NCBI GenBank assembly: GCA_017635095.1
Contig: JAGBMA010000092.1
Span: 30,994 to 94,993, forward strand
DNA length: 64,000 bases
Origin: Ruminiclostridium sp.
Lineage (GTDB): Bacteria; Bacillota; Clostridia; Oscillospirales; Ruminococcaceae
Direction: 5' to 3'
A program made the position numbers and the translations under genes. Below, piece by piece: positions 29,903 through 40,380 of this stretch. The stretch's first letter is position 1, and every line of letters starts with the position of its first letter. The notes under the pieces are model-generated. The model did no database searches. It was not told the DNA's origin and saw only the letters and a program-made list of their open reading frames with translations.

Positions 29903-31873
29903 TTGCAGCCAGTGTGGATGCCGGCGTTTGACTTCTGCGCTTTTGTTGTCCTCTCTTTCATACTCGTTGCGTGCTTTTTCAGACGCATGACCCACGGCAA
30001 AGCCAACCGATATTTCATGTACATCACCTGTACCTGTATAGTGTCCAGCGTTTTTGATATATTCTCGATCTATCTTGACCTCAACACGGATCCGTCTATG
30101 GTGCCGGTACGATTTGCAATGCACGGTCTTTATCTTTTCTCACACGTTCTGACTGCACCGTTGTTCCTCGTATATGTTGTGGCGCTCACCGATACTTTTC
30201 ACCTTTTCGGAAAAGACCGTATCGAGCTGTATTTTCTGGGTATGCCCACGGTCGTGATAGCGCTTGCATTCGTTGCGAACTGCTTCAACGGCATGATATA
30301 CTCGATAAAAGACGGCGTTTACACCCGCGGACCGGTAATGGGGATACTATATCTTATCGCCGGAATATTCAGTGCCGCCTGCGTTGCCTACCTTATCTGC
30401 TACAGGAAGCTTTTCAGCAGAACGAAGCTCATCTCCCTCATCAGCACTTTCCCGCTTTTCGTAGCCGCGGTCTTTCTCCAGTTCATCGACCGTTCGCTTC
30501 GCGTGGAGATGTTCGCGATAGCTGTCGGGCTGCTCTTCATAGCAATGTTTATCCAGCGCCCGGAAGCTCTCATAGATTACAACACGGGTATCTACAAGTT
30601 CAATGCCTATGCCAACGACATGAGAATGAACTTTATCAATAAAAAACCGGTGCAGATCATACTCATAAATATCGCCAATTTTCTGCAGATACAGGAGATA
30701 CTCAGCTACGAATCCGCCAACGATATGCTGAAGCTCGTCGCAGAGCGCATCGACTCGATATTAAGACAGTCCAGGACATATGCGGACATCTACTATCTCG
30801 ACAAAGGACGTTTCCGCATCGTACTCAGCGAAGAAGATCACGAAAAGACCGAATATACCGCGGAGACAATAAATGCCGCATTGAAACCGAAACTCCCGCT
30901 CAACGGTATGGAGCTCAATCTTATAGCCTTTGTGTGCGTTGCCAAATGCCCCGAGGAAATATCCGATTTCAACACTCTTGTCGAGTTCGGAAAGGATCTT
31001 TCGTCAAAGTTTCGGTTCAGCGGCAAAGTGCTCCACGCCGGAGAGCTTCTCGACAGAAGCAGGTACGACCTTATGGGCGAGCTTGACAAGATCATATCCG
31101 ACGCGGTGCTCAACAATAAATTCGAGGTGTTCTATCAGCCGATATACAATGTGAACGAGGGCAGGTTCCGTTCTGCGGAAGCTCTTATCCGCCTGTATAA
31201 TGAGAAGTACGGCTTTATCTCCCCCGAACTCTTCATTCCCGTCACCGAAAAGACCGGTGCAATACACAAGATCGGGATGTTTGTGTTCGATGAGGTCTGC
31301 AAATTCATAGCAAGCGACGATTTCAAGCGGCTCGGCCTTGAATACATAGAAGTCAATCTCTCTATCGTGCAGTGTATGCAGGGTGGTCTCGCCGGCGACC
31401 TCATAAGAGTAATGAAGAAGTACGGCGTTTCCCCCGATCAGATCAACCTTGAGATCACCGAATCCGCCGACTCACAGACCCAGAATATAATCGCAGAGAA
31501 CCTTACTTCTCTCCTCAACGCCGGTCTGACATTCTCGCTTGACGATTTCGGCACAGGGTATTCAAATATGCAGAGAATGGCTTCCCTGCCGCTGAAAATA
31601 GTTAAACTCGATAAGACTTTCGCTAATTTCGACTCGAATCCGAAGCTTATGATCGTGCTGCAGAATACCGTCAAGATGATAAAGGATATGGACATGGAGA
31701 TCGTAGTCGAAGGCGTTGAAACAAAGGAACTTGTGGAAAGATTCACAAATCTCGAATGCGAGTACATTCAGGGTTACTTCTACTCACGCCCGATACCGAG
31801 AGATCAGTTCGTTGAGTTTATCGGCAAATCCCTCGTTAATGTCCCAAAAGATGATTATTATATAACGGCATGA
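29903..31873 (+). CDS. membrane-anchored c-di-GMP phosphodiesterase (multi-TM sensor, degenerate GGDEF domain, EAL domain)
   Basis: EALIRL, EITES, DDFGTGYS, KLDK, EGVET and QGYFYSRP are the EAL catalytic motifs. The GGDEF position reads DKGRF, which is degenerate. The TTG start is uncertain. Confidence 0.8.
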   Translation: MQPVWMPAFDFCAFVVLSFILVACFFRRMTHGKANRYFMYITCTCIVSSVFDIFSIYLDLNTDPSMVPVRFAMHGLYLFSHVLTAPLFLVYVVALTDTFHLFGKDRIELYFLGMPTVVIALAFVANCFNGMIYSIKDGVYTRGPVMGILYLIAGIFSAACVAYLICYRKLFSRTKLISLISTFPLFVAAVFLQFIDRSLRVEMFAIAVGLLFIAMFIQRPEALIDYNTGIYKFNAYANDMRMNFINKKPVQIILINIANFLQIQEILSYESANDMLKLVAERIDSILRQSRTYADIYYLDKGRFRIVLSEEDHEKTEYTAETINAALKPKLPLNGMELNLIAFVCVAKCPEEISDFNTLVEFGKDLSSKFRFSGKVLHAGELLDRSRYDLMGELDKIISDAVLNNKFEVFYQPIYNVNEGRFRSAEALIRLYNEKYGFISPELFIPVTEKTGAIHKIGMFVFDEVCKFIASDDFKRLGLEYIEVNLSIVQCMQGGLAGDLIRVMKKYGVSPDQINLEITESADSQTQNIIAENLTSLLNAGLTFSLDDFGTGYSNMQRMASLPLKIVKLDKTFANFDSNPKLMIVLQNTVKMIKDMDMEIVVEGVETKELVERFTNLECEYIQGYFYSRPIPRDQFVEFIGKSLVNVPKDDYYITA

Positions 31874-32200
31874 CAGCGTATCATAAAGGTACGCTGTCTT
31901 TTGTCAATATCACCTAATCCCGTTGCATTTTATTGTGTAAAGTGCCAAAAATCTGATGTTCCCCTTGAAAAAAATACTATAATATGTTATATTTACTGTA
32001 GGTTATTGTAATTAATAACCGTGATTTGTGTTTTGAAAAAGGCAACATCTGACCACCTGCCGCTGCTTCGGAGGAACAGAAAGGCGGATCGTGCAGTCAG
32101 CGGGAACCGATCACTCCTGCCCTGTACATTATATCTCACCCGTATGCTCCGATGAGCCGCGACAGGCTCGGAGGCTGCCGAAATCAAAGGGGGGATATGA

Positions 32201-32941
32201 ATGACTTTAGGTGCATTAAAACTTAACAACAGCATTTCAAACTACAGAAATGCAGCCAATTCATATCTCAAAATGTCGGAAGACGCACAAAAACTCGGTC
32301 TCAAGGAAGAACAGACCATAAAGAAAAATGAAAGCCGTTATGATCTTGACGGAACACTCAAGGAAGAGCATTTGCCCATCGGTTCTTTGGAAAAAGCAAA
32401 GAAAAAAGAGGAAGAAGCCGAAAAGCTCGGTCTTGAAACCAAAAAGGACGATAAGACTGAAGAGGCTGAAAAGGCTGAGAAAACCGATAAAACCGAAGGA
32501 AATATTCTCGATAAAGACGTTCGCGGCAAGGAAAAAGACGATGAAAAAGGTCTTTTTGGCAAGAAAAAGGACGGCTTTGAAAAGGATCCTCCGAATTGTG
32601 AGTGCGAGACTTGCCGTAAAAGGCGGTACCAGGATGATTCGGACGATTCCGCGGTCTCGTTCCAGATGCCGACCAATATGTCACCTGCTGCTGCAAAAAG
32701 CAGAGTCAGGATGCATGAGCTCGAACACGTTCGCAGAGAGGGCATCAAGGCAAGACAGGAAGGTAAACACATCGTTTCCCAGACTGTGCAGATCAAAACC
32801 GACACCTGCAATGAATGCGGACGCATTTATGTCTCGGGCGGTCTGACAAGGACCGTTACGCGCATCGACATGAGAGATTTCCACAGAATGTTTATGCTCG
32901 GATTCGACGGTACCGATGAATACGGGAAAAACATAAGCTGA
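32201..32941 (+). CDS. SprA-related / putative metalloprotease CJM1_0395-like protein with a Lys/Glu-rich N-terminal half
   Basis: CECETCRKRRYQDDSDDSAVSFQMP...RVRMHELEHVRRE...CNECGRIYVSGG resembles my recollection of the SprA-related family (VRxHExxH...Y..GG). GGGGGG RBS. Confidence 0.5.
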   Translation: MTLGALKLNNSISNYRNAANSYLKMSEDAQKLGLKEEQTIKKNESRYDLDGTLKEEHLPIGSLEKAKKKEEEAEKLGLETKKDDKTEEAEKAEKTDKTEGNILDKDVRGKEKDDEKGLFGKKKDGFEKDPPNCECETCRKRRYQDDSDDSAVSFQMPTNMSPAAAKSRVRMHELEHVRREGIKARQEGKHIVSQTVQIKTDTCNECGRIYVSGGLTRTVTRIDMRDFHRMFMLGFDGTDEYGKNIS

Positions 32942-32954
32942 AGAGGAAGATTAT

Positions 32955-32990
32955 AACGGCGGTATCTCATATATCCGCCGTTTTCTCTTT
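32955..32990 (+). terminator. rho-independent terminator
   Basis: AACGGCGG-12 nt-CCGCCGTT followed by TTCTCTTT. Confidence 0.6.
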
Positions 32991-33004
32991 ATACAGGAGT
33001 TGTT

Positions 33005-33265
33005 ATGAAATTATTCAGTCGTAAGCACAAAATCACCGGCAAACTCTATGGACCGCCGGAAATGATAGAAGAGAGACAGAACAAAAGTCTCTTCTCCTCT
33101 AAAAATAATTCCGCCGAGTGTATATACGGTCCTCCGGAAATGCTCAGAGCCCGCATGAGGAAAAAGGAAGAATTCGAGCCTGACGATAACGTCGGTGAGG
33201 ACGTTTACGGTCCGCCGGAGATGTTTGGTATTGCCGAACCGGACGACGAGGAGAATGAAAGGTGA
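33005..33265 (+). CDS. YGPPEM-repeat small protein 1 (86 aa, no signal peptide)
   Basis: CAGGAG RBS. Three YGPPEM motifs start at codons 15, 41 and 68. The C-terminus is acidic. Confidence 0.6.
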   Translation: MKLFSRKHKITGKLYGPPEMIEERQNKSLFSSKNNSAECIYGPPEMLRARMRKKEEFEPDDNVGEDVYGPPEMFGIAEPDDEENER

Positions 33266-33468
33266 AAAAGCATTTATTCAGGTTTTCATTCCGTGCGCCT
33301 TGGAACAACAGTTCAAATATCGCAAGCGGCATCTATGGTCCGCCGGAGATGCTGAACAGAGCCGGTAAGGTAAAGAAAGAAGATACTATCGGCTCCGGTG
33401 ATGACATTTACGACAAACAGGAAATATCCGGTAAAGCCGGACCTGATGACAAGGAGGAAGCACAGTGA
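33262..33468 (+). CDS. YGPPEM-repeat small protein 2 (68 aa)
   Basis: The GTG start overlaps the upstream stop (GTGA), with GAGGAG upstream. There is one YGPPEM motif. Confidence 0.5.
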   Translation: MKKHLFRFSFRAPWNNSSNIASGIYGPPEMLNRAGKVKKEDTIGSGDDIYDKQEISGKAGPDDKEEAQ

Positions 33469-33986
33469 AGAAACGCAAGATCACGGGCGCGGCTGCCGCT
33501 CTTTCGGCTGCAGTTTCCCTGGGTGCCTGCGGTATCTACGGACCTGCTCCGGCGGATTTAACAACAACGACAACAATCGGAACTACGCCAACTGTTACTT
33601 CGACTGAAGCAACTGCATCAGACACCTTCAGACCCGAAGATATGTTTACTCAGACAGAATACGGTCCTCCGGAGTGGCTTGAGACAGATGAAACGAGCAA
33701 TGACGAACCCACCGTATTCACCGCGGAAGATAATGACGCAGAATGTGTATATGGTCCTCCCGAGTGGTTTGAAACAGAAGATACGGCGGAAAACATAGAG
33801 CCTTCCCCTGCACCATATGAGACAACCAACAGCGGTGACGATGACGTTATCGAAAAACAGGAAAAAACCGGCTCGATATTCGGACATATTCTCGACATTT
33901 TATCCCCGGACATGGAGACCGTCGATTATTCTCCCGAAGAAAACATAGGGGAAGATGTTTACGGACCGCCGGAATGGTTTGAATAA
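33465..33986 (+). CDS. YGPPEW-repeat lipoprotein (173 aa)
   Basis: The GTG start overlaps the upstream stop (GTGA), preceded by AAGGAGG. The lipoprotein signal is MKKRKITGAAAALSAAVSLGAC. There are one degenerate motif (GIYGPAP) and three exact YGPPEW motifs, and the last ends the protein (YGPPEWFE-stop). Confidence 0.65.
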   Translation: MKKRKITGAAAALSAAVSLGACGIYGPAPADLTTTTTIGTTPTVTSTEATASDTFRPEDMFTQTEYGPPEWLETDETSNDEPTVFTAEDNDAECVYGPPEWFETEDTAENIEPSPAPYETTNSGDDDVIEKQEKTGSIFGHILDILSPDMETVDYSPEENIGEDVYGPPEWFE

Positions 33987-34010
33987 TGCATTTTCGGAGG
34001 ATCTACCGAT

Positions 34011-35114
34011 ATGACAAACAGAGTACTGAAAACCAGGCACATGACCGAGCTTTCGGAATACAGGAAAAAGCTGCTTAAAGAACCGGTACTGCGGCATCTT
34101 TTCTTCGAGCTCACCATGAACTGCAACGAGCACTGCAAACACTGCGGGAGCAGCTGCGGAGACAGCAGCGTTCCCGATATTCTCACAACGGAAGAGTATT
34201 TTTCCATTCTCGACCAGATCCGAAGTGACTTCGGCACCACAGGCTTTATGCTATGTATCACCGGCGGTGAACCGCTTCTGCGCAGGGACTTCTTTGAGAT
34301 AATGGGTTATGCGGATAAGCTCGGGTTCAACTGGGGCATGACCACAAACGGTACGCTGATCGACCGGGAAACTGCACACAAACTCCGTGAAGCAGGCATG
34401 AAGACCGTGTCGATAAGCATTGACGGCACAGAACCTACGCACAATGAGTTCCGCAGGACGAAAGACGGTTATAAGCGCGCAATGACGGGACTGCAGAACC
34501 TCATCGACGAGAATGCGTTCAAGCACATTCAGGTGACTACAGTCATCACACACGAAAGCATAAGCGAGCTTGATGAGCTTTTCGATATTTTCGACAATAT
34601 TGACATTGATTCCTGGCGCGTGATCAACCTCGAACCTATCGGTCGTGCAAAACAATATCCCGAACTCCTCCTCACGCCCGACGACTACAGACGGCTTTTC
34701 TCGTTCATCAGGGAAAAACGCGAGGCGGGATATCCCCTTTGTTACGGCTGCAGCCACTACCTCGGCACCGATCTTGAAGCGGAGCTAAGGGACTGGTACT
34801 TTATCTGCAACGCCGGCATCTACACGGCGAGCATTATGGCAAACGGAGATATCGCTGCCTGTCTTGACATAGAACGCAGACCCGAGCTTATCCAGGGCAA
34901 TATCCGCCATGACCGCTTCAAAGACGTATGGCTCAATAAATTCGAGCCATTCCGCGACCCGAAGTTCAGGAGCTGCGATATGTGCGATAAGTGCAGCGAC
35001 CGTGATTTCTGCAACGGAGACTCGTTCCATACATGGAATTTTGATGAGAAACGACCGGAGATCTGCATAAAAAATCTTCTGGAACTAAGGGGAACCTCTA
35101 AAAACCCAATTTGA
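34011..35114 (+). CDS. radical SAM enzyme with a C-terminal SPASM/twitch-type Cys-rich domain
   Basis: CNEHCKHC is the CX3CX2C motif and GGEPLL is the SAM-binding motif. The C-terminal cysteines are CYGCSHY, CNAG, ACLD and CDMCDKCSDRDFCNGD. It starts 24 nt after the preceding ORF with a GGAGGA RBS. Confidence 0.85.
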   Translation: MTNRVLKTRHMTELSEYRKKLLKEPVLRHLFFELTMNCNEHCKHCGSSCGDSSVPDILTTEEYFSILDQIRSDFGTTGFMLCITGGEPLLRRDFFEIMGYADKLGFNWGMTTNGTLIDRETAHKLREAGMKTVSISIDGTEPTHNEFRRTKDGYKRAMTGLQNLIDENAFKHIQVTTVITHESISELDELFDIFDNIDIDSWRVINLEPIGRAKQYPELLLTPDDYRRLFSFIREKREAGYPLCYGCSHYLGTDLEAELRDWYFICNAGIYTASIMANGDIAACLDIERRPELIQGNIRHDRFKDVWLNKFEPFRDPKFRSCDMCDKCSDRDFCNGDSFHTWNFDEKRPEICIKNLLELRGTSKNPI

Positions 35115-35243
35115 GAGAAAAAGAGCTATCCACGCCGTCTACTGCGTCAAACCTCCTAACCGGGCGCCAGCCCGGCTTCGTCGGCTTTCCTTGTATCCGA
35201 CGCAGCTATCTCATTTTCTCTTTTCAAAGCGGTTTTTAGAGGT
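35094..35243. repeat. nested imperfect inverted repeat; about 150 nt of potentially highly structured RNA/DNA
   Basis: The outer arms 35094-35125 and 35210-35243 form about 28 bp, including a perfect 13-mer (ACCTCTAAAAACC/GGTTTTTAGAGGT). An inner pair is CTGCGTC (35143-49) with GACGCAG (35199-205). The central hairpin is CCGGGC-gcca-GCCCGG (35160-75). Confidence 0.8.
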
Positions 35244-35339
35244 ACCCAGTAATGAGAGCATTTTCATAGCGTTATCATTCATATTTCACATAGTACTGTT
35301 AAGATAATTATGATCTTACAGCTCAGGAGGTAAGCTTTT

Positions 35340-36338
35340 ATGATAGAAGTCAGGCATCTGACAAAGAGCTACGGTCCCAAGAAGGCTGTGAATGACATAT
35401 CGTTCACAGCGGAAGAGGGCCAGGTGCTCGGGTTCCTCGGTCCGAACGGCGCGGGGAAATCAACCACAATGAACATTCTTACGGGCTATATTTCCTCTAC
35501 CGAGGGACAGGCTTTCATCAACGGTGTCGATATACTCGAAGACCCGATCAAGGCGAAAAGCTTCATAGGCTATCTGCCGGAGCAGCCTCCGCTTTACTTC
35601 GACATGACCGTTGACGAGTACCTTAGCTTTGTGTACAGCCTGAAAAAATGCAAGCTTCCGAAAAAATCGCATCTCAACGAGATCTGTGATATCGTGAAGC
35701 TCGGCGACGTCCGCGGGCGTCTCATAAAGAACCTCTCCAAAGGTTACAAGCAGCGTGTGGGCTTTGCCCAGGCTCTTGTGGGTAACCCGAAAGTCCTCAT
35801 TCTCGACGAGCCCACCGTCGGTCTCGACCCCAAGCAGATAATCGAGATACGCACGCTCATAAAGCGGCTCGGCAAGAACCATACCGTGATACTTTCCTCC
35901 CATATCCTGCCGGAGGTACAGGCGGTCTGTGACCGTATCGTTGTCATAAACAAGGGGCGTATCGTTGCCAACGACAACGCCGATACGCTTGCACGCAACC
36001 TCTCCGCGGATCACAAGCTCGTACTTCACATAGAAGGCGGAAGCGACGAGATAAAGAAGATACTCACGTCCATAGGCGATGTTGAGCGCGTTTTCGTCGG
36101 CAGACAGGTCGATGAGCGTGTCTATGAATACCACGTCGAGGCAAAGGAAGGCGTGGATGTGCGCCGCGACATATTCAAAAAGCTTGCCGCGCGCAATTAC
36201 CCGATACTGCTCATGCGCTCGAACGAGCTTTCCCTTGAGGAAGTGTTCCTGAAACTCACCACCGGCGACGAGTACGGCGGAGCGGAGAAGCTCGAAACGA
36301 AATTTGACCGCATGGAGAAAGGAGAGGAGAGCAAGTGA
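35340..36338 (+). CDS. ABC transporter ATP-binding protein
   Basis: GPNGAGKST (Walker A), LSKGYKQRV (signature) and LILDEPTVGLD (Walker B). Confidence 0.9.
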   Translation: MIEVRHLTKSYGPKKAVNDISFTAEEGQVLGFLGPNGAGKSTTMNILTGYISSTEGQAFINGVDILEDPIKAKSFIGYLPEQPPLYFDMTVDEYLSFVYSLKKCKLPKKSHLNEICDIVKLGDVRGRLIKNLSKGYKQRVGFAQALVGNPKVLILDEPTVGLDPKQIIEIRTLIKRLGKNHTVILSSHILPEVQAVCDRIVVINKGRIVANDNADTLARNLSADHKLVLHIEGGSDEIKKILTSIGDVERVFVGRQVDERVYEYHVEAKEGVDVRRDIFKKLAARNYPILLMRSNELSLEEVFLKLTTGDEYGGAEKLETKFDRMEKGEESK

Positions 36339-37039
36339 CAGCTATAATGAAGCGGGAACTTTCCGCGTATTTCAAATCCCCGATAGGCTACGTCTTTATC
36401 GCAGTTTCCTTCCTCTTCTCGGGATTTTTCTTCTGGTTCTTTACGCTGAGCGTGGGCAGCACCGACGTTTCCACAGTGTTCCTCGGAATGTTCTACGTTT
36501 ACATGATATTTGTGCCGGTGCTGACAATGCGTCTTATGGCGGACGAGAACAAGCAGCGCACCGACCAGCTCTTACTCACCGCGCCGGTGGGGCTGATGCG
36601 GCTCGTTGCGGGCAAGTTCCTCTCGGCGTACTGCGTGTTTATGCTCGGCGATATAGTAATGCTGATCTACGGCGTTGTTATGAGCTTTTTCGCGAGTGTG
36701 AACTGGGCGATAATTCTCGGCAACTTCTGTGCCCTCGCGCTTATAGGTGCAGTCTTCGTATCTGCGGGGCTGTTCGTTTCGACCCTTACCGAGAGCCAGA
36801 TGGTGGCGGCGATAGGCTCCATAGCCCTCAATGTGGCGCTTGCGCTCATAAACGTCATCTCCTCGGTCATTCCCGTGCAGTTCATCTCCGATGCGCTCCG
36901 CGGAATATCCGTATTTGACCGTTACTATGAGTTCACCACAGGCATATTCAGCCTCAGCGGAGTGATCTTCTTCATCAGTGTGGTCGTGGTCTTCATGTTC
37001 CTCACCGTCCGCGTTCTTGAGCGCCGCCGTTGGGCATAA
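36335..37039 (+). CDS. ABC-2 type transporter permease (GldF-like)
   Basis: The N-terminus KRELSAYFKSPIGYVFIAVSFLF and six TM segments. It overlaps the ATPase gene by 4 nt. Confidence 0.8.
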   Translation: MTAIMKRELSAYFKSPIGYVFIAVSFLFSGFFFWFFTLSVGSTDVSTVFLGMFYVYMIFVPVLTMRLMADENKQRTDQLLLTAPVGLMRLVAGKFLSAYCVFMLGDIVMLIYGVVMSFFASVNWAIILGNFCALALIGAVFVSAGLFVSTLTESQMVAAIGSIALNVALALINVISSVIPVQFISDALRGISVFDRYYEFTTGIFSLSGVIFFISVVVVFMFLTVRVLERRRWA

Positions 37040-37159
37040 GGCCGCCCTCGGCATTGCCCTCGCCCTGCGCTCCGGCTGAGCGTTCCCCCGGAACTGAGCC
37101 GGGACGATAACTTATGACAGAATGACTGCAAAAAAGCCCGATAAAAGGAGCAGATACAA

Positions 37160-38845
37160 ATGGCAGAAAACGAAGAGATAAAGAAAGATACCGCCGAAGA
37201 AGTGCAGGAGACTGCACCCGACACGGCGGAGGAAATAAAGGAAGATACGGCTACGGAGCAGGCTCCCGAGGCACAGAGCCCGGAGGAGACTGCTCCGGAG
37301 AAGCCGAAGAAAAAAAGCGGTAATCCGTTCAGAAGCAAAAAGTTCAGGCACGGCACACTCTCTGTGGTATTCACCGTGATCTTTGTTGCGGCGGTAGTGC
37401 TGGTAAATGTTGTCATTGACCTTGTTCTTGAGCGCTTCAACGTCGAAGCCGACCTCACCACAGGCGCGATCTTCACTCTCGGCGAAGAGACCGAGGAATA
37501 TATCCGGAGCGTTGACGACGATGTGACTTTCTACGTCACTGCCGAGAGGGAAGCCCTCAACAATGCCGGCAACAATTACAAGCAGACTGTTGAATATCTC
37601 GACAAGATGACGGTCCTCAACCGCCGCTTCAAGGTGCAGTACGTCAACCTGCTCACAGACCCGGACTTCTCCAAGGATTACGAGGAAGACCTGAAAAACT
37701 ACCAGATCATAGTAAAGAGCGGAAAGACCGGAAGATACCGGGTCGTTTCCATCAACGACTTCATGAGGTACACCCTCAGCGACGGCAATACCTACGGCTA
37801 CGAAGAAGCGAGTATGTATGTGAACTACTACGGCTACACAGTCTCGGGCTATTCGAGCGTAGCCGAGGAGGAGATCGTTTCGGCGGTGCAGTCCGTATCA
37901 CTTGATGACCCGACGGTAGTTACATTCCTGACGGGCTACGGCGAATCCGACAGCTCTCCCCTTGAGCAGATACTGACTGCCAACGCTTATGTTACCCAGA
38001 CGGCAGAGATAGACCGCATCGAGGCTGTCCCGGAAAACACCGACATTCTTGTGATCCACGGCCCCACAAAGGATTACAGCAACGACGCGGTGAACAAGGT
38101 CGATGAATGGCTCTCGAACGGCGGCAAGTACGGCAAGGATCTTGTGTTCATAGCGAGCGCGGACGCCGCGGACACTCCGAACCTTGACGAATATCTTGCG
38201 GAATGGGGTCTTGAGATCGGAAAGGGCTATGTGCTCCAGACCGACACAGACCATGTTTACTACACCGGCTCGGCGCTGCCGCTCATGCAGGATCTTGAGA
38301 TAAAGACGGACACCGACTACTATGAGAACATGAAGATCTCGTCATCGTCGAAGCTCGTTGTATATCCCGTCCGTCCGGTAATAAGCCTTTGGGAGAACAA
38401 GGGCAACTTCGCAAACAAGCCGCTTGTTTCCTCTTATGGTGAAAAGTGCCTGCTTTATCCCTTCACGGCGGACGAGAACTGGAACCCCTCGGAAGCGGAA
38501 CTCAAAGGCTACGACGCGGTTGTAGAAGCTTCCAAGGTGCAGTTCGAAGGCGGCACAGTGCCCGTTTACAGCAAGATAGTGGCTGTGGGAAGCGACCAGT
38601 TCTTCGCGTCCTACTACACCACCGCCTCAAACTACAGCAACGGTGAGCTTGCACTTACGCTTTTCGATACAAACTCCGGACAGGGCGGCAACAAGATAAA
38701 GATAGTTGAAAAGCCGTTCACAGCGGAGACCTATCAGATCGACCGCAGCACCCAGCTTGCAATAGGCATAACATTCGTGGCCGTGATACCGATCATCATT
38801 ATAGTTGCAGGCATAATCGTATGGGCAAGGAGAAGAAGGCTTTAA
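37160..38845 (+). CDS. GldG-family ABC-transporter auxiliary protein
   Basis: An acidic N-terminus with N- and C-terminal TM anchors flanking a large extracytoplasmic domain. The architecture and gene order are typical of GldG-like proteins. Confidence 0.65.
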   Translation: MAENEEIKKDTAEEVQETAPDTAEEIKEDTATEQAPEAQSPEETAPEKPKKKSGNPFRSKKFRHGTLSVVFTVIFVAAVVLVNVVIDLVLERFNVEADLTTGAIFTLGEETEEYIRSVDDDVTFYVTAEREALNNAGNNYKQTVEYLDKMTVLNRRFKVQYVNLLTDPDFSKDYEEDLKNYQIIVKSGKTGRYRVVSINDFMRYTLSDGNTYGYEEASMYVNYYGYTVSGYSSVAEEEIVSAVQSVSLDDPTVVTFLTGYGESDSSPLEQILTANAYVTQTAEIDRIEAVPENTDILVIHGPTKDYSNDAVNKVDEWLSNGGKYGKDLVFIASADAADTPNLDEYLAEWGLEIGKGYVLQTDTDHVYYTGSALPLMQDLEIKTDTDYYENMKISSSSKLVVYPVRPVISLWENKGNFANKPLVSSYGEKCLLYPFTADENWNPSEAELKGYDAVVEASKVQFEGGTVPVYSKIVAVGSDQFFASYYTTASNYSNGELALTLFDTNSGQGGNKIKIVEKPFTAETYQIDRSTQLAIGITFVAVIPIIIIVAGIIVWARRRRL

Positions 38846-40380
38846 TGGGAAAGAACGCAAAGATCATCATATTCTCGCTTATAGGGCTCGCAGTCCTCGG
38901 CGGCGTTGCGGCGCTGCTGATGCTGACTGCGCCGGAACAGAAGGCTCCGGCGGAGAACAATGACTTCAAAGAGCCCGTGACCGCCTCCGACAGCGCCGAC
39001 CTTACGCTTTGCAAGAGAGACGAGAAGGATATCGTAAGCGTGGAGATCACCAACGATTCCGGAACTTACAGCATCACCCCGAGCGGCAATACCGACTCCG
39101 AGGGCAGCATAATATGGACGATCGCGGATATCGCTTCCGCCCCCCTCAATTCATCGGCTCTTTCGACTGCGGCGGGGTATGCCGCGGAATTCGACGCGAA
39201 GGAGTTCGCCGAGACCGTTGCGGACAGCTCCGAGCTTGCAAAATACGGGCTCGATAAGCCTGTCGCGCAGTTCAGGACCACGTTCACCGACGGAAGTACG
39301 TTTGAACTTAAAGTAGGCAGCGAAGTGCCCAATACCGCTTCGTCGGTATATGTCACACCGGACGGAAAGGACGTTTACACTGCATATAAGAGCCGCACCA
39401 GCAGCTACACCGGAAGCAAGTACAGTTTCGTGAGCCTGTCTGTGATGCCGGCGTATGACCAGAACAGCGGCGAAGAGGTCATGAAAATGACCATAGAGCG
39501 CACGGATCTTGACAAGCCTATAGCTATCGAGAACATAATCCCCGAATCCGAGGATGCGATACAGGTCTATTCCTACCGCATGACAAGTCCGTACACAGCT
39601 TACGTCGATCTTACCGAGGGTCCGAAGTTCGCTTACAGCGTCTTCGGGCTGAACGCGGCAAGTGTGTACAGCCTTGACGGTGACAGCACCGATCTGAGTG
39701 CGCTGGGGTTTGACGCGCCCCTCATAAAGGCTTCGGTAGAAACGAATGTAAAAACCTACACTCTTACCATAGGCTCGTCGATCTATGAGACGAGAACGGA
39801 CGATGACGGAAACGAGAGAAGCGTTTTTGCAGGCTGCTACGCCATGTCCAGCGAGCACCCGGGTATCGTGTATATACTTGCCCCCGAAAGCGTGAACGGG
39901 TTCGGGATAGCTCCGTCGGCGCTCATATCCAAGCTGTTCCTGATGCCATACATCTATGACCTTGAGTCCATTGAGTACAGCGATAACACAGACCGTAAGC
40001 TCGATATAGGCATAAAGCTCATCGAGGCTCCCGAAGCCAATAAGGAAGAAGTGAGTGAGTTCACGGTCAACGGCGAGAAATGGGACGATACGGCGTTCAA
40101 GAACCTTTACCAGTACCTTATCTCCTGCGCGGGCGAGGAACTCTATCTCGACAGCGAAAAAGGCGGGTTCATAGCCGAGATCGTGTACAACTACACCGAC
40201 AAGGCGGACGGCATCAACGGAAAGGACGTTGTGCGGCTTTACGAATCGGAGAATGACCGCAAAGTCATTATCGAGCTCAACGGTGAGAACCTGTTCAAGA
40301 CCCGCCGTCTCTATGCAACTCAGCTCTTCGCAAATATCGAAAGCTTCCTCTCCGGCGGTGAGATCACGCTTACCTATTGA
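38845..40380 (+). CDS. DUF4340-like protein (N-terminal TM anchor, large extracytoplasmic domain)
   Basis: The start is a TAATG overlap with the GldG stop, preceded by AAGGAG. It occupies the usual position after GldG in this module. The ORF-track start at 38821 is an alternative. Confidence 0.55.
   Translation: MGKNAKIIIFSLIGLAVLGGVAALLMLTAPEQKAPAENNDFKEPVTASDSADLTLCKRDEKDIVSVEITNDSGTYSITPSGNTDSEGSIIWTIADIASAPLNSSALSTAAGYAAEFDAKEFAETVADSSELAKYGLDKPVAQFRTTFTDGSTFELKVGSEVPNTASSVYVTPDGKDVYTAYKSRTSSYTGSKYSFVSLSVMPAYDQNSGEEVMKMTIERTDLDKPIAIENIIPESEDAIQVYSYRMTSPYTAYVDLTEGPKFAYSVFGLNAASVYSLDGDSTDLSALGFDAPLIKASVETNVKTYTLTIGSSIYETRTDDDGNERSVFAGCYAMSSEHPGIVYILAPESVNGFGIAPSALISKLFLMPYIYDLESIEYSDNTDRKLDIGIKLIEAPEANKEEVSEFTVNGEKWDDTAFKNLYQYLISCAGEELYLDSEKGGFIAEIVYNYTDKADGINGKDVVRLYESENDRKVIIELNGENLFKTRRLYATQLFANIESFLSGGEITLTY

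What the first reader, a model, noticed from the sequence alone, without database searches (positions are those of the whole stretch)
33005..35114. YGPPE[M/W]-repeat small ORFs coupled to a radical SAM/SPASM enzyme: candidate undescribed peptide-modification (RiPP-like) locus
Seen in the sequence: three consecutive ORFs (86, 68 and 173 aa) each have a Shine-Dalgarno site. They are chained by GTGA stop/start overlaps. Together they carry seven exact YGPPE[M/W] motifs (KLYGPPEMI, CIYGPPEML, DVYGPPEMF, GIYGPPEML, TEYGPPEWL, CVYGPPEWF, DVYGPPEWFE-stop) plus a degenerate GIYGPAPAD. A 367-aa protein begins 24 nt downstream. It has CNEHCKHC (CX3CX2C), GGEPLL and a Cys-rich C-terminus (CYGC, CNAG, ACLD, CDMCDKCSDRDFCNGD), which is the look of a SPASM/twitch auxiliary Fe-S domain. 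A terminator at 32955-32990 precedes the block and a large hairpin follows it, so the four genes look like one operon.

Established knowledge: rSAM/SPASM enzymes encoded beside short ORFs that carry repeated motifs are the hallmark of RiPP maturases. Examples are sacti- and ranthipeptides, streptide, and the three-residue cyclophane 'triceptide' enzymes that act on repeated aromatic-X-X motifs.

Inference: the aromatic-Gly-Pro-Pro-Glu-[Met/Trp] unit could be the repeated site of modification or recognition. I do not recognise this motif from any described RiPP class.
Basis: partly seen in the sequence, partly recalled or inferred. Interest (0 to 1): 0.85.

Follow-up and report, generated by a model that had tools for sequence, protein, structure and literature searches.

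The report
Radical SAM enzyme with Tyr-Gly-motif partner proteins
A rumen Ruminococcus-like bacterium encodes an iron-sulfur radical enzyme next to three small proteins studded with a conserved Val/Leu/Ile-Tyr-Gly-Pro motif; the pairing recurs across gut anaerobes and probably marks a backbone-rewriting ("tyramine splicing") protein modification not yet tested in this clade.

Summary
Three chained ORFs (86, 68 and 173 aa) carry seven YGPPE[M/W] motifs and one YGPAP. They are the only YGPP motifs in the 64-kb window. A 367-aa radical SAM/SPASM gene follows them.

Comparative genomics supports an enzyme-substrate pair. In 39 of 40 assessable homologous loci, an adjacent ORF carries [VLI]-Y-G-[PSTVA]-P sites. 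No other neighbour is conserved. Natural enzyme-motif fusions exist.

The locus is not wholly undescribed:
- The enzyme's best model is TIGR04133 (287 bits, below the 425 cutoff), the "rSAM/lipoprotein system".
- True TIGR04133 loci carry the TIGR04134 lipoprotein, with a YG[TCVA]P site just after the lipobox.
- ORF3 is likewise a lipoprotein, with Cys-Gly-Ile-Tyr-Gly-Pro.
- Elsewhere the motif sits on dockerin and DUF805 membrane proteins. These look like anchored proteins rather than diffusible peptides.

The invariant core X-Y-G equals the splice site of spliceotides. There, rSAM/SPASM "spliceases" excise tyramine (−135.06 Da) and leave protease-inhibiting α-ketoamides.

My best explanation is a binary, leader-independent, splicease-like module (confidence about 0.45). 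Another Tyr-centred chemistry is the main rival. The chemistry is inferred, not shown. I could not read Scott et al. 2022, which may already list this clade.

The parts
32955..32990 (+). Terminator-like hairpin with a U-run, ending the upstream 246-aa gene. It lies only about 14 nt before the ORF1 Shine-Dalgarno site.
   Evidence: 11-bp stem, -13 to -16.8 kcal/mol, z = -2.3. Not listed by the simple scan.
33005..33265 (+). ORF1, 86 aa. Small basic/acidic protein without a signal peptide. Three X-Y-G-P-P sites: LYG at 33044-33052, IYG at 33122-33130 and VYG at 33203-33211.
   Evidence: Positional homologues in L001, L003 and L004.
33262..33468 (+). ORF2, 68 aa, GTG start overlapping the ORF1 stop. 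One site, IYG at 33331-33339. No signal peptide. Its positional counterpart in L001 is a lipoprotein.
   Evidence: The exact sequence is seen on 12 contigs.
33465..33986 (+). ORF3, 173 aa. Lipoprotein with signal MKKRKITGAAAALSAAVSLGAC and lipobox LGAC. The mature N-terminus is Cys-Gly-Ile-Tyr-Gly-Pro. Four sites: IYG at 33534-33542, EYG at 33657-33665, VYG at 33747-33755 and VYG at 33957-33965. The last motif ends the protein. The linkers are Thr/Asp/Glu-rich.
   Evidence: Homologous lipoproteins in L001, L003 and L004. Only 6 sequence homologues were found.
34011..35114 (+). Radical SAM/SPASM enzyme, 367 aa. It has an N-terminal helix (residues 4-23), a CX3CX2C motif at C38/C42/C45, a conserved extra Cys49 and a full SPASM domain. 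It has no RRE domain.
35110..35235 (+). Long imperfect hairpin followed by a T-rich run; a probable operon end.
   Evidence: -43.6 kcal/mol, z = -2.2. No Rfam match.

Best explanation
This is a two-component, motif-directed protein-modification module. It belongs to the wider superfamily around TIGR04133/TIGR04134, the 'rSAM/lipoprotein system'.

Proposed mechanism:
1. The cytoplasmic rSAM/SPASM enzyme recognises short [Val/Leu/Ile]-Tyr-Gly-Pro sites directly. It needs no leader peptide and no RRE partner.
2. The sites lie in the three proteins encoded just upstream, eight sites in total.
3. For the lipoprotein ORF3, modification happens before Sec/Lsp export.
4. The most likely chemistry is that of the spliceases (PlpX, RcsX, RasX). 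The 5'-deoxyadenosyl radical attacks the Tyr. A tyramine equivalent (C8H9NO, -135.06 Da) is excised from the backbone. C1 of residue X is joined to C1 of the former Tyr. [quoted passage not shown]
5. Ketoamides are electrophilic Ser/Cys-protease inhibitor warheads. The products would therefore be multivalent protease inhibitors, either soluble (ORF1, ORF2) or anchored on the surface (ORF3; dockerin or DUF805 carriers in relatives).

Status of each step:
- Shown: the gene pair, the motif and its conservation, the carrier architectures and the enzyme fold class.
- Inferred: that the motif is the substrate site (about 0.8), that the chemistry is tyramine splicing (about 0.45-0.5), and that the role is protease inhibition (about 0.25).
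For: Synteny:
- 39 of 40 assessable genome loci at 43-87% enzyme identity have an adjacent ORF with [VLI]YG[PSTVA]P sites. They come from Ruminococcus, Oscillospiraceae, Lachnospiraceae and Bacilli.
- More distant loci keep the pairing. Clostridium swellfunianum has two 54/57-aa lipoproteins with KYGPP x2. A deltaproteobacterial MAG has a 222-aa lipoprotein with LYGP repeats.
- Only the enzyme and the motif proteins are conserved neighbours.

Motif specificity:
- All YGPP motifs in the window and in the loci lie in these ORFs.
- The carriers are otherwise unrelated in sequence. Selection therefore acts on the motif itself.
- Logo: V/L/I 93% at position -1.

Fusions: natural fusions join the enzyme to the motif in P0128, P0133 and P0135.

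Link to TIGR04133/TIGR04134:
- TIGR04133 is the best NCBIfam model, full length, 287 bits.
- True TIGR04133 enzymes sit beside TIGR04134 lipoproteins (124 bits). These have [EM]YG[TCVA]P after the lipobox, or small lipoproteins with VYGPRP or LYGPPP.

Link to spliceases:
- X-Y-G is the defining splice site. Validated sites are MYG and LYG.
- PlpA splice tags read ...RP[L/G]YGLPI, also Y-G-x-P.
- Spliceases outside type I are binary systems without a Y protein.
- Splicing is leader-independent and works on proteins (PMC11414181, PMC10533398, PMC11626197, PMC9811515).
- The PlpX-family model TIGR04103 is the best-scoring RiPP-maturase model besides MftC for this superfamily, at 105-138 bits, in some cases nearly full length.

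Fold: the AF2 model (pLDDT 92.5) is a compact rSAM-SPASM without an RRE. It resembles the motif-directed protein modifier anSME, with TM 0.68-0.70.
Against: - There are no experimental data for any member of the TIGR04133 superfamily in the literature I could search.
- The enzyme is not a PlpX-family member: TIGR04103 scores 114.7 bits against a cutoff of 725. It scores equally or better against AhbD, MftC and NirJ models. Sequence therefore does not single out splicing chemistry.
- The equation TIGR04103 = IPR026482 (the PlpX family) is my inference, not a tool result.
- One Bacilli lineage has V-Y-A-G-P-S, with Ala between Tyr and Gly (L035). Others have LYGVK, LYGAR or KYGVV without Pro. 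The strict XYG-P rule is therefore not universal.
- An AF2 run on an artificial ORF3-tail/enzyme fusion left the tail at pLDDT about 30, with no docking signal.
- ORF1 and ORF2 lack export signals, so a surface role cannot apply to them.
Confidence: 0.45

Rival explanations
1. The enzyme-substrate pair and the target motif are the same, but the chemistry is different. Options: a Tyr-centred crosslink (for example a three-residue cyclophane between the Tyr ring and the Pro at +2, triceptide-like, or a Tyr-O/C link to a neighbouring C-alpha), beta-hydroxylation or desaturation of Tyr, or epimerisation of the V/L/I or Tyr residue.
For: - Y-G-P formally fits the aromatic-X-X pattern of triceptide sites, and the motif is repeated.
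- Pro at +2/+3 is strongly but not universally conserved, which a pure XYG splice site does not require.
- MftC (Val-Tyr chemistry) scores 140 bits over the full length.
- The structural neighbours SkfB, CteB and SuiB are crosslinking enzymes, and EpeE is an epimerase.
Against: - No triceptide (XyeB-type) model appears among the top 25 NCBIfam hits.
- Pro is absent in several lineages (LYGVK, LYGAR, LYGVD), whereas Tyr-Gly persists. This argues against a crosslink to residue +2.
- No second conserved reactive side chain (Cys, Lys, Trp) accompanies Tyr.
Confidence: 0.3
2. This is a classical RiPP natural-product locus. The small ORFs are leader/core precursors. Their modified cores are cleaved out and released as diffusible bacteriocins or signals.
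For: - ORF1 and ORF2 are short, lack signal peptides and are translationally coupled to each other and to ORF3, with the maturase gene following 24 nt after ORF3.
- Similar small ORFs occur in L001, L003, L004 and L028.
- Characterised spliceotides are RiPPs.
Against: - No protease, exporter or immunity gene is conserved with the pair. The ABC transporter downstream of the window locus is not syntenic elsewhere.
- Most carriers are lipoproteins, dockerin proteins, DUF805 membrane proteins or TM-anchored proteins of 100-490 aa, with sites spread over their whole length.
- No Nif11/NHLP or other leader family is detected.
Confidence: 0.1
3. The motif proteins are not substrates. The enzyme makes or modifies a cofactor or small molecule (AhbD/NirJ-like), and the YG proteins are co-functioning partners such as binding or anchoring proteins.
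For: The second-best NCBIfam hits are heme-pathway rSAM enzymes: AhbD 160 bits and NirJ2 140 bits.
Against: - Those hits cover mainly the generic rSAM core and are far below their cutoffs of 500.
- No other pathway genes are conserved nearby.
- Enzyme-motif fusion proteins exist.
- The only thing conserved in the partners is a 4-5-residue linear motif in disordered, fast-evolving sequence. That is typical of a modification site, not of a folded binding partner.
Confidence: 0.1

Closest known systems
TIGR04133 / TIGR04134 'rSAM/lipoprotein system' (NCBIfam/TIGRFAMs hypothetical equivalogs; Bacteroidales and others; function unknown)
   Same: - TIGR04133 is the best, full-length model for the window enzyme.
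- Both have an adjacent lipoprotein with a Tyr-Gly-x-Pro site close to the lipidated Cys.
- Both are two-gene modules.
- JGI annotates intermediate Clostridium relatives as 'radical SAM enzyme (rSAM/lipoprotein system)'.
   Different: - The enzyme scores 287 bits, below the cutoff of 425.
- The window partners get no TIGR04134 hit. They lack its beta-sandwich-like body and instead carry 1-4 motif copies in acidic, disordered sequence.
- Two of the three window partners are not lipoproteins.
Spliceotides / tyramine spliceases (PlpX-PlpY type I; RhaX/RcsX/RasX type II; Scott et al. 2022 binary types)
   Same: - Both use an rSAM/SPASM enzyme.
- Both have X-Y-G sites with hydrophobic X, sometimes several per substrate.
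- Validated PlpA tags also read Y-G-x-P.
- Non-type-I systems are binary.
- The reaction is leader-independent and works on whole proteins (PMC11414181, PMC10533398, PMC11626197).
   Different: - The enzyme is not in the PlpX family: TIGR04103 scores 114.7 against a cutoff of 725.
- There is no Nif11/NHLP leader and no Y protein.
- The substrates are lipoproteins or anchored proteins from strict anaerobes.
- The chemistry is untested here.
- I could not check whether Scott et al. 2022 already lists this clade.
Anaerobic sulfatase-maturating enzyme (anSME)
   Same: - Both are compact rSAM-SPASM enzymes of about 370 aa without an RRE (TM 0.68-0.70).
- anSME modifies a short linear motif in a protein in the cytoplasm before Sec export. 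The same logic is needed for ORF3.
   Different: - The target motif differs (Cys/Ser-x-Pro-x-Arg) and so does the chemistry (formylglycine).
- There is no sulfatase nearby.
- Sequence identity is about 22%.
Triceptides (three-residue cyclophane-forming rSAM enzymes, XyeB-type)
   Same: Both have a repeated aromatic-X-X motif in small ORFs beside an rSAM/SPASM enzyme.
   Different: - No XyeB-type model appears among the top hits.
- The residue at +2 is not conserved in all lineages.
Mycofactocin maturase MftC
   Same: Both show SPASM rSAM chemistry on a Val-Tyr dipeptide. The full-length model hit scores 140 bits.
   Different: - The score is below the cutoff of 265.
- MftC needs a C-terminal Tyr and the MftB chaperone.
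- No mft genes are present.

Membership tests
TIGR04133/TIGR04134 rSAM/lipoprotein system | Enzyme scores at or above the TIGR04133 curated cutoff (425 bits). | tested here: not met
   287.2 bits, full-length alignment. True members score 447-569 bits.
TIGR04133/TIGR04134 rSAM/lipoprotein system | Adjacent partner matches TIGR04134 (cutoff 39.8 bits). | tested here: not met
   None of the three ORFs hits it, even at E <= 10. Bacteroidales partners score 85-124 bits.
TIGR04133/TIGR04134 rSAM/lipoprotein system | rSAM/SPASM gene adjacent to a lipoprotein gene. | tested here: met
   ORF3 has the signal peptide and lipobox LGAC 24 nt upstream of the enzyme gene.
TIGR04133/TIGR04134 rSAM/lipoprotein system | Tyr-Gly-x-Pro site near the mature N-terminus of the lipoprotein. 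This shared feature was found here; it is not an official criterion. | tested here: met
   The window has C-G-I-Y-G-P. Bacteroidales have C...[EM]YG[TCVA]P or C-YGPRP.
Spliceotide (tyramine splicease) systems | rSAM enzyme with a SPASM domain. | tested here: met
   PF04055 and PF13186. Conserved Cys pattern.
Spliceotide (tyramine splicease) systems | X-Y-G motif(s) in the protein(s) encoded next to the enzyme. | tested here: met
   Eight XYG sites in the window. They are conserved across 39 of 40 loci.
Spliceotide (tyramine splicease) systems | Enzyme belongs to the PlpX family (IPR026482; I equate it with TIGR04103). | tested here: not met
   TIGR04103 scores 114.7 bits against a cutoff of 725. 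Other splicease 'types' are defined by a phylogeny I could not access.
Spliceotide (tyramine splicease) systems | Nif11/NHLP leader and a PqqD-like Y protein (type I only). | tested here: not met
   No Pfam or NCBIfam hit on the ORFs. No extra small conserved gene. Binary types do not require these (PMC11414181).
Spliceotide (tyramine splicease) systems | [quoted passage not shown] | not testable with these tools
   Needs co-expression and MS.
Triceptides (3-CyFE) | XyeB-type maturase and a crosslink from the aromatic ring to C-beta of residue +2. | tested here: inconclusive
   The Y-G-P pattern fits formally. No XyeB-type model is in the top 25 hits. The crosslink is not testable.
anSME | C/S-x-P-x-R substrate motif in a sulfatase, and anSME family membership. 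| tested here: not met
   No such motif and no sulfatase. There is structural similarity only, and anSME is not among the top NCBIfam hits.
Mycofactocin (MftC) | TIGR03962 at or above 265 bits, with mftA and mftB neighbours. | tested here: not met
   140.2 bits. No mft genes.

The most novel reading that the evidence does not exclude
Strict anaerobes of gut and rumen (Clostridia, Bacilli, Bacteroidales, some Deltaproteobacteria) use TIGR04133-superfamily enzymes to splice tyramine out of X-Y-G sites in whole proteins: lipoproteins, cellulosomal dockerin proteins and DUF805 membrane proteins. This would create native proteins whose backbone contains beta-amino-acid ketoamides. Such proteins would act as multivalent covalent protease inhibitors, displayed on the cell surface or on the cellulosome. 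It would give the orphan TIGR04133/TIGR04134 pair a function. It would also extend 'spliceotides' from secreted peptides to structural surface proteins of the microbiome.
Probability: 0.3. Interest if true: 0.8.

Novelty: new variant of a known kind. Interest (0 to 1): 0.62.

Why it matters
- If the chemistry is tyramine splicing, this clade would show that backbone-rewritten, ketoamide-bearing proteins are common on the surfaces of gut and rumen anaerobes.
- That would bear on protease resistance and protease inhibition in the gut. It would also bear on protection of cellulosome linkers; dockerin-borne serpins are a precedent I recall from memory, not a checked source.
- It would supply compact, leader-independent enzymes that recognise a 4-5-residue tag, which is useful for protein engineering.
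- If the chemistry is something else, the very short, deeply conserved V/L/I-Tyr-Gly-Pro tag still defines a new rSAM protein modification with several hundred enzyme clusters: 369 clusters at 50% identity with E <= 1e-30.
- Either way, the work assigns a concrete, testable target site to the long-orphan TIGR04133/TIGR04134 pair.

Tried and rejected
- Pfam and NCBIfam searches on the three ORFs gave no family.
- A homologue search with ORF3 found only 6 close relatives. The carriers evolve too fast for family detection.
- Literature searches for TIGR04133, TIGR04134, YGPP, YGPPE, VYGPP and 'rSAM lipoprotein' found nothing relevant.
- Scott et al. 2022 (Chem 8:2659) and Vagstad et al. 2024 are not held.
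- The held supplements contain no splicease sequences, so I could not build a phylogeny with validated spliceases.
- AF2 on an artificial fusion (last 122 aa of ORF3 + read-through linker + enzyme) left the tail at pLDDT about 30, which is uninformative.
- An Rfam scan of 31800-35600 gave no RNA family.
- Methanocella protein P0368 could not be located on a contig.
- I rejected anSME, AhbD/NirJ, MftC and PqqE membership, because all score far below their cutoffs.
- I rejected chance, because the motif count far exceeds the shuffles and is conserved across phyla.
Full report
**1. Observation**

- ORF1, 33005-33265, 86 aa.
- ORF2, 33262-33468, 68 aa.
- ORF3, 33465-33986, 173 aa.
- A 367-aa gene at 34011-35114.

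ORF2 and ORF3 start with GTG inside GTGA overlaps with the preceding stop. All four starts have Shine-Dalgarno-like sites 5-10 nt upstream (read).

The seven YGPPE[M/W] motifs and GIYGPAPAD are exact. YGPP occurs seven times in the six-frame translation of the whole 64-kb window, and all seven are in these ORFs. Shuffles give about 1 for the whole window.

The enzyme matches Radical_SAM and SPASM.

The upstream hairpin with its U-run folds at -13 to -16.8 kcal/mol. The downstream long hairpin folds at -43.6 kcal/mol. No promoter-like site separates the upstream hairpin from ORF1, so read-through from the 246-aa gene is possible.

**2. What the proteins are**

ORF3 is a lipoprotein. Its signal is MKKRKITGAAAALSAAVSLGAC, and the mature N-terminus reads Cys-Gly-Ile-Tyr-Gly-Pro. 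ORF1 and ORF2 have no hydrophobic N-terminus. All three are acidic and low in complexity. Most of their tyrosines sit in the motif: 8 of 11. None matches a Pfam or NCBIfam family.

The AF2 model of the enzyme is confident (pLDDT 92.5, pTM 0.90). It shows an N-terminal helix (residues 4-23), the rSAM barrel and a full SPASM domain, with no RRE domain. The closest solved folds are SkfB, anSME (TM 0.68-0.70 over the full length), SuiB and CteB. By sequence, the PDB gives only weak hits.

**3. Comparative genomics**

*Size and spread of the family.* The enzyme family is large. There are 2338 90%-identity clusters at E <= 1e-20 among the word-indexed candidates. There are 369 50%-identity clusters at E <= 1e-30. 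Members come mostly from rumen and gut Ruminococcus, Oscillospiraceae and Lachnospiraceae.

*Synteny in 41 homologous loci.* I fetched 41 homologous genome loci.
- L001-L031, L038, L039 and L041 all have [VLI]YGPP sites in ORFs directly upstream, on the same strand. There are no such sites elsewhere in the flanks.
- L036 has YGSP.
- L033 and L034 (Bacilli) have a divergent gene with VLYG[VAP] repeats and a C-terminal TM anchor.
- L035 has VYAGPSYF repeats.
- L032 has a single VYGTP in an overlapping downstream ORF.
- L037 has only a truncated partner.
- L040 cannot be assessed.

That makes 39 of 40 assessable loci, four of them with variant or weak motifs (L032, L035, L036, and the mixed LYGP/LYG[VA] repeats in L033/L034).

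*Neighbours.* All-against-all clustering of ORFs shows that only the enzyme and the motif proteins are conserved neighbours. The window's downstream ABC/GldG-like genes and the upstream EAL protein are not part of the module.

*Motif logo.* The logo from 168 sites is N(-6) x P(-4) [EQV] [DTPC] [V68%/L15%/I10%] Y G P P [E/P] [W/A/M/D/Y] [F] [E/D].

*Carrier architectures* (Pfam):
- Small proteins without a signal.
- Lipoproteins with the first site 2-10 residues after the Cys.
- Sec-signal proteins with a type I dockerin flanked by sites.
- DUF805 membrane proteins with motif-rich tails.

*Fusions.* Three representatives fuse the enzyme to the motif. P0128 has N-terminal VYGCATP, VYGVATP and VYGTPSS. 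P0133 and P0135 have C-terminal YGPPE or YGPPP with zinc ribbons.

**4. Link to a catalogued system**

The best NCBIfam model is TIGR04133 'rSAM_w_lipo', at 287 bits against a cutoff of 425.

Relatives at 32-36% identity score 380-570 bits. JGI names some 'radical SAM enzyme (rSAM/lipoprotein system)'.
- In Clostridium swellfunianum the enzyme is preceded by two 54/57-aa lipoproteins, each with KYGPP twice. NCBI calls them hypothetical.
- A JGI contig shows the same arrangement.
- A deltaproteobacterial MAG has a downstream 222-aa lipoprotein with LYGP repeats.

I fetched eighty metagenomic loci of true TIGR04133 enzymes. Many have the TIGR04134 'radical SAM-associated putative lipoprotein' upstream (85-124 bits). 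It carries [EM]YG[TCVA]P a few residues after the lipobox. Others have small lipoproteins with C-YGPRP, or with C-terminal VVYGPRP or LYGPPP.

The Tyr-Gly-x-Pro site is therefore the common denominator of the whole superfamily. The window clade is a Firmicute variant in which the site is multiplied on disordered carriers.

**5. Mechanism**

No paper in the searchable library mentions TIGR04133, TIGR04134 or the motif.

However, X-Y-G is the defining site of spliceotides. The points below come from PMC11414181, PMC10533398, PMC11626197, PMC9811515, PMC10849128 and PMC11002830.
- rSAM/SPASM spliceases (PlpX, IPR026482) excise a tyramine equivalent (C8H9NO, 135.06 Da). [quoted passage not shown]
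- Natural sites are MYG and LYG. PlpA splice tags read RP[L/G]YGLPI, which is also Y-G-x-P.
- The reaction is leader-independent and works inside proteins.
- Systems outside cyanobacterial type I are binary and have no Y protein.
- A survey of YG-rich neighbours of rSAM-SPASM enzymes predicted 939 systems in 189 genera and validated 27.
- The products inhibit Ser/Cys proteases at nM-µM concentrations.

The window system matches in enzyme class, site, binary layout and absence of an RRE.

It does not match the PlpX family model. I equate TIGR04103 with IPR026482; that is my inference. TIGR04103 scores 114.7 bits against a cutoff of 725. Across the superfamily it scores 105-138 bits, on a par with AhbD, NirJ2, TIGR04053 and MftC. 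Sequence alone therefore does not decide the chemistry.

Further points against:
- The Y-A-G variant in L035.
- The Pro-less LYGVK and LYGAR sites.
- An uninformative AF2 fusion test.

My estimates:
- The motif is the enzyme's target: about 0.8.
- The chemistry is splicing: about 0.45-0.5.
- Another Tyr-centred chemistry: about 0.3.
- The motif proteins are not substrates: about 0.1.

The enzyme's own N-terminal helix might play the role of the 'activating helix' that the Y protein or the leader provides in known spliceases (PMC11414181). This is speculation.

**6. Novelty and verdict**

The pair is real, but three things change:
- The unit is X-Y-G(-x)-P.
- The family is catalogued, although uncharacterised.
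- A described RiPP class uses the same site.

I could not read Scott et al. 2022, so this clade may already be among their predicted types. No experimental work on it was found.

I classify it as a new variant of a known kind. The novel element is the set of carriers: lipoprotein, dockerin and DUF805 proteins from strict anaerobes. Interest 0.62.

Noticed in passing
P0138, P0139, P0142, P0143, P0147, P0149 and others (representatives; not in the window): A sister clade of the enzyme (41-45% identity) carries a C-terminal extension of about 200 aa with an H-T-H-P...S-x-x-D, JAMM/MPN-like motif (read). Pfam did not recognise the extension. These proteins contain no YG motif.
   Followed up: partly
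L033 2216-3463(-), L034 1-783(-), L035 2004-3476(-) and 3463-3882(-), L037 3167-3849(-): In the Bacilli clade the enzyme gene is divergently paired with a two-gene unit. One gene encodes a helical protein of about 130-139 aa. The other encodes a 415-490-aa protein with a conserved helical N-domain, [VL]LYG or VYAGP repeats and a C-terminal TM anchor. In L037 the repeat tail is missing. There are no Pfam hits.
   Followed up: partly
window 32201-32941 (+): A 246-aa Lys/Glu-rich protein with C-x-C-x2-C, HELEH and C-x2-C motifs lies just upstream. It matches no Pfam or NCBIfam family. It is conserved only in the five closest loci. It may be co-transcribed with the module, because no promoter-like site follows its terminator.
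   Followed up: no
L043 3638-3802 and 3826-3999 (Clostridium swellfunianum small lipoproteins): These show weak, sub-threshold similarity (12-17 bits; cutoff 37) to NF058595 'lipo-invert putative C-terminal anchoring domain'. The match spans the signal peptide, lipobox and YGPP region. Its meaning is unknown.
   Followed up: no
window 33262-33468 (ORF2) versus L001 3010-3387: ORF2 has no signal peptide, whereas the gene at the same position in the 87%-identical locus L001 encodes a 125-aa lipoprotein with three sites. ORF2 may be a decayed copy. Its exact sequence nevertheless recurs on 12 contigs.
   Followed up: partly
window 29903-31873 (+) and 35340-40380 (+): An EAL/degenerate-GGDEF membrane protein lies upstream. 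Downstream lie an ABC ATPase, an ABC-2-type permease, and 561-aa and 519-aa proteins that look GldG-like and DUF4340-like; that reading is mine, not a search result. None of these is syntenic with the enzyme in other loci.
   Followed up: partly
L005-L010, L012, L013 (Ruminococcus/Oscillospiraceae loci): Arrays of up to five paralogous Sec-signal/dockerin proteins lie upstream of the enzyme. Their YGPP sites flank the dockerin and often end the protein (…YGPPEWFEQQ*, …YGPIGWYDSE*). This suggests that modified proteins are delivered to the cellulosome.
   Followed up: partly
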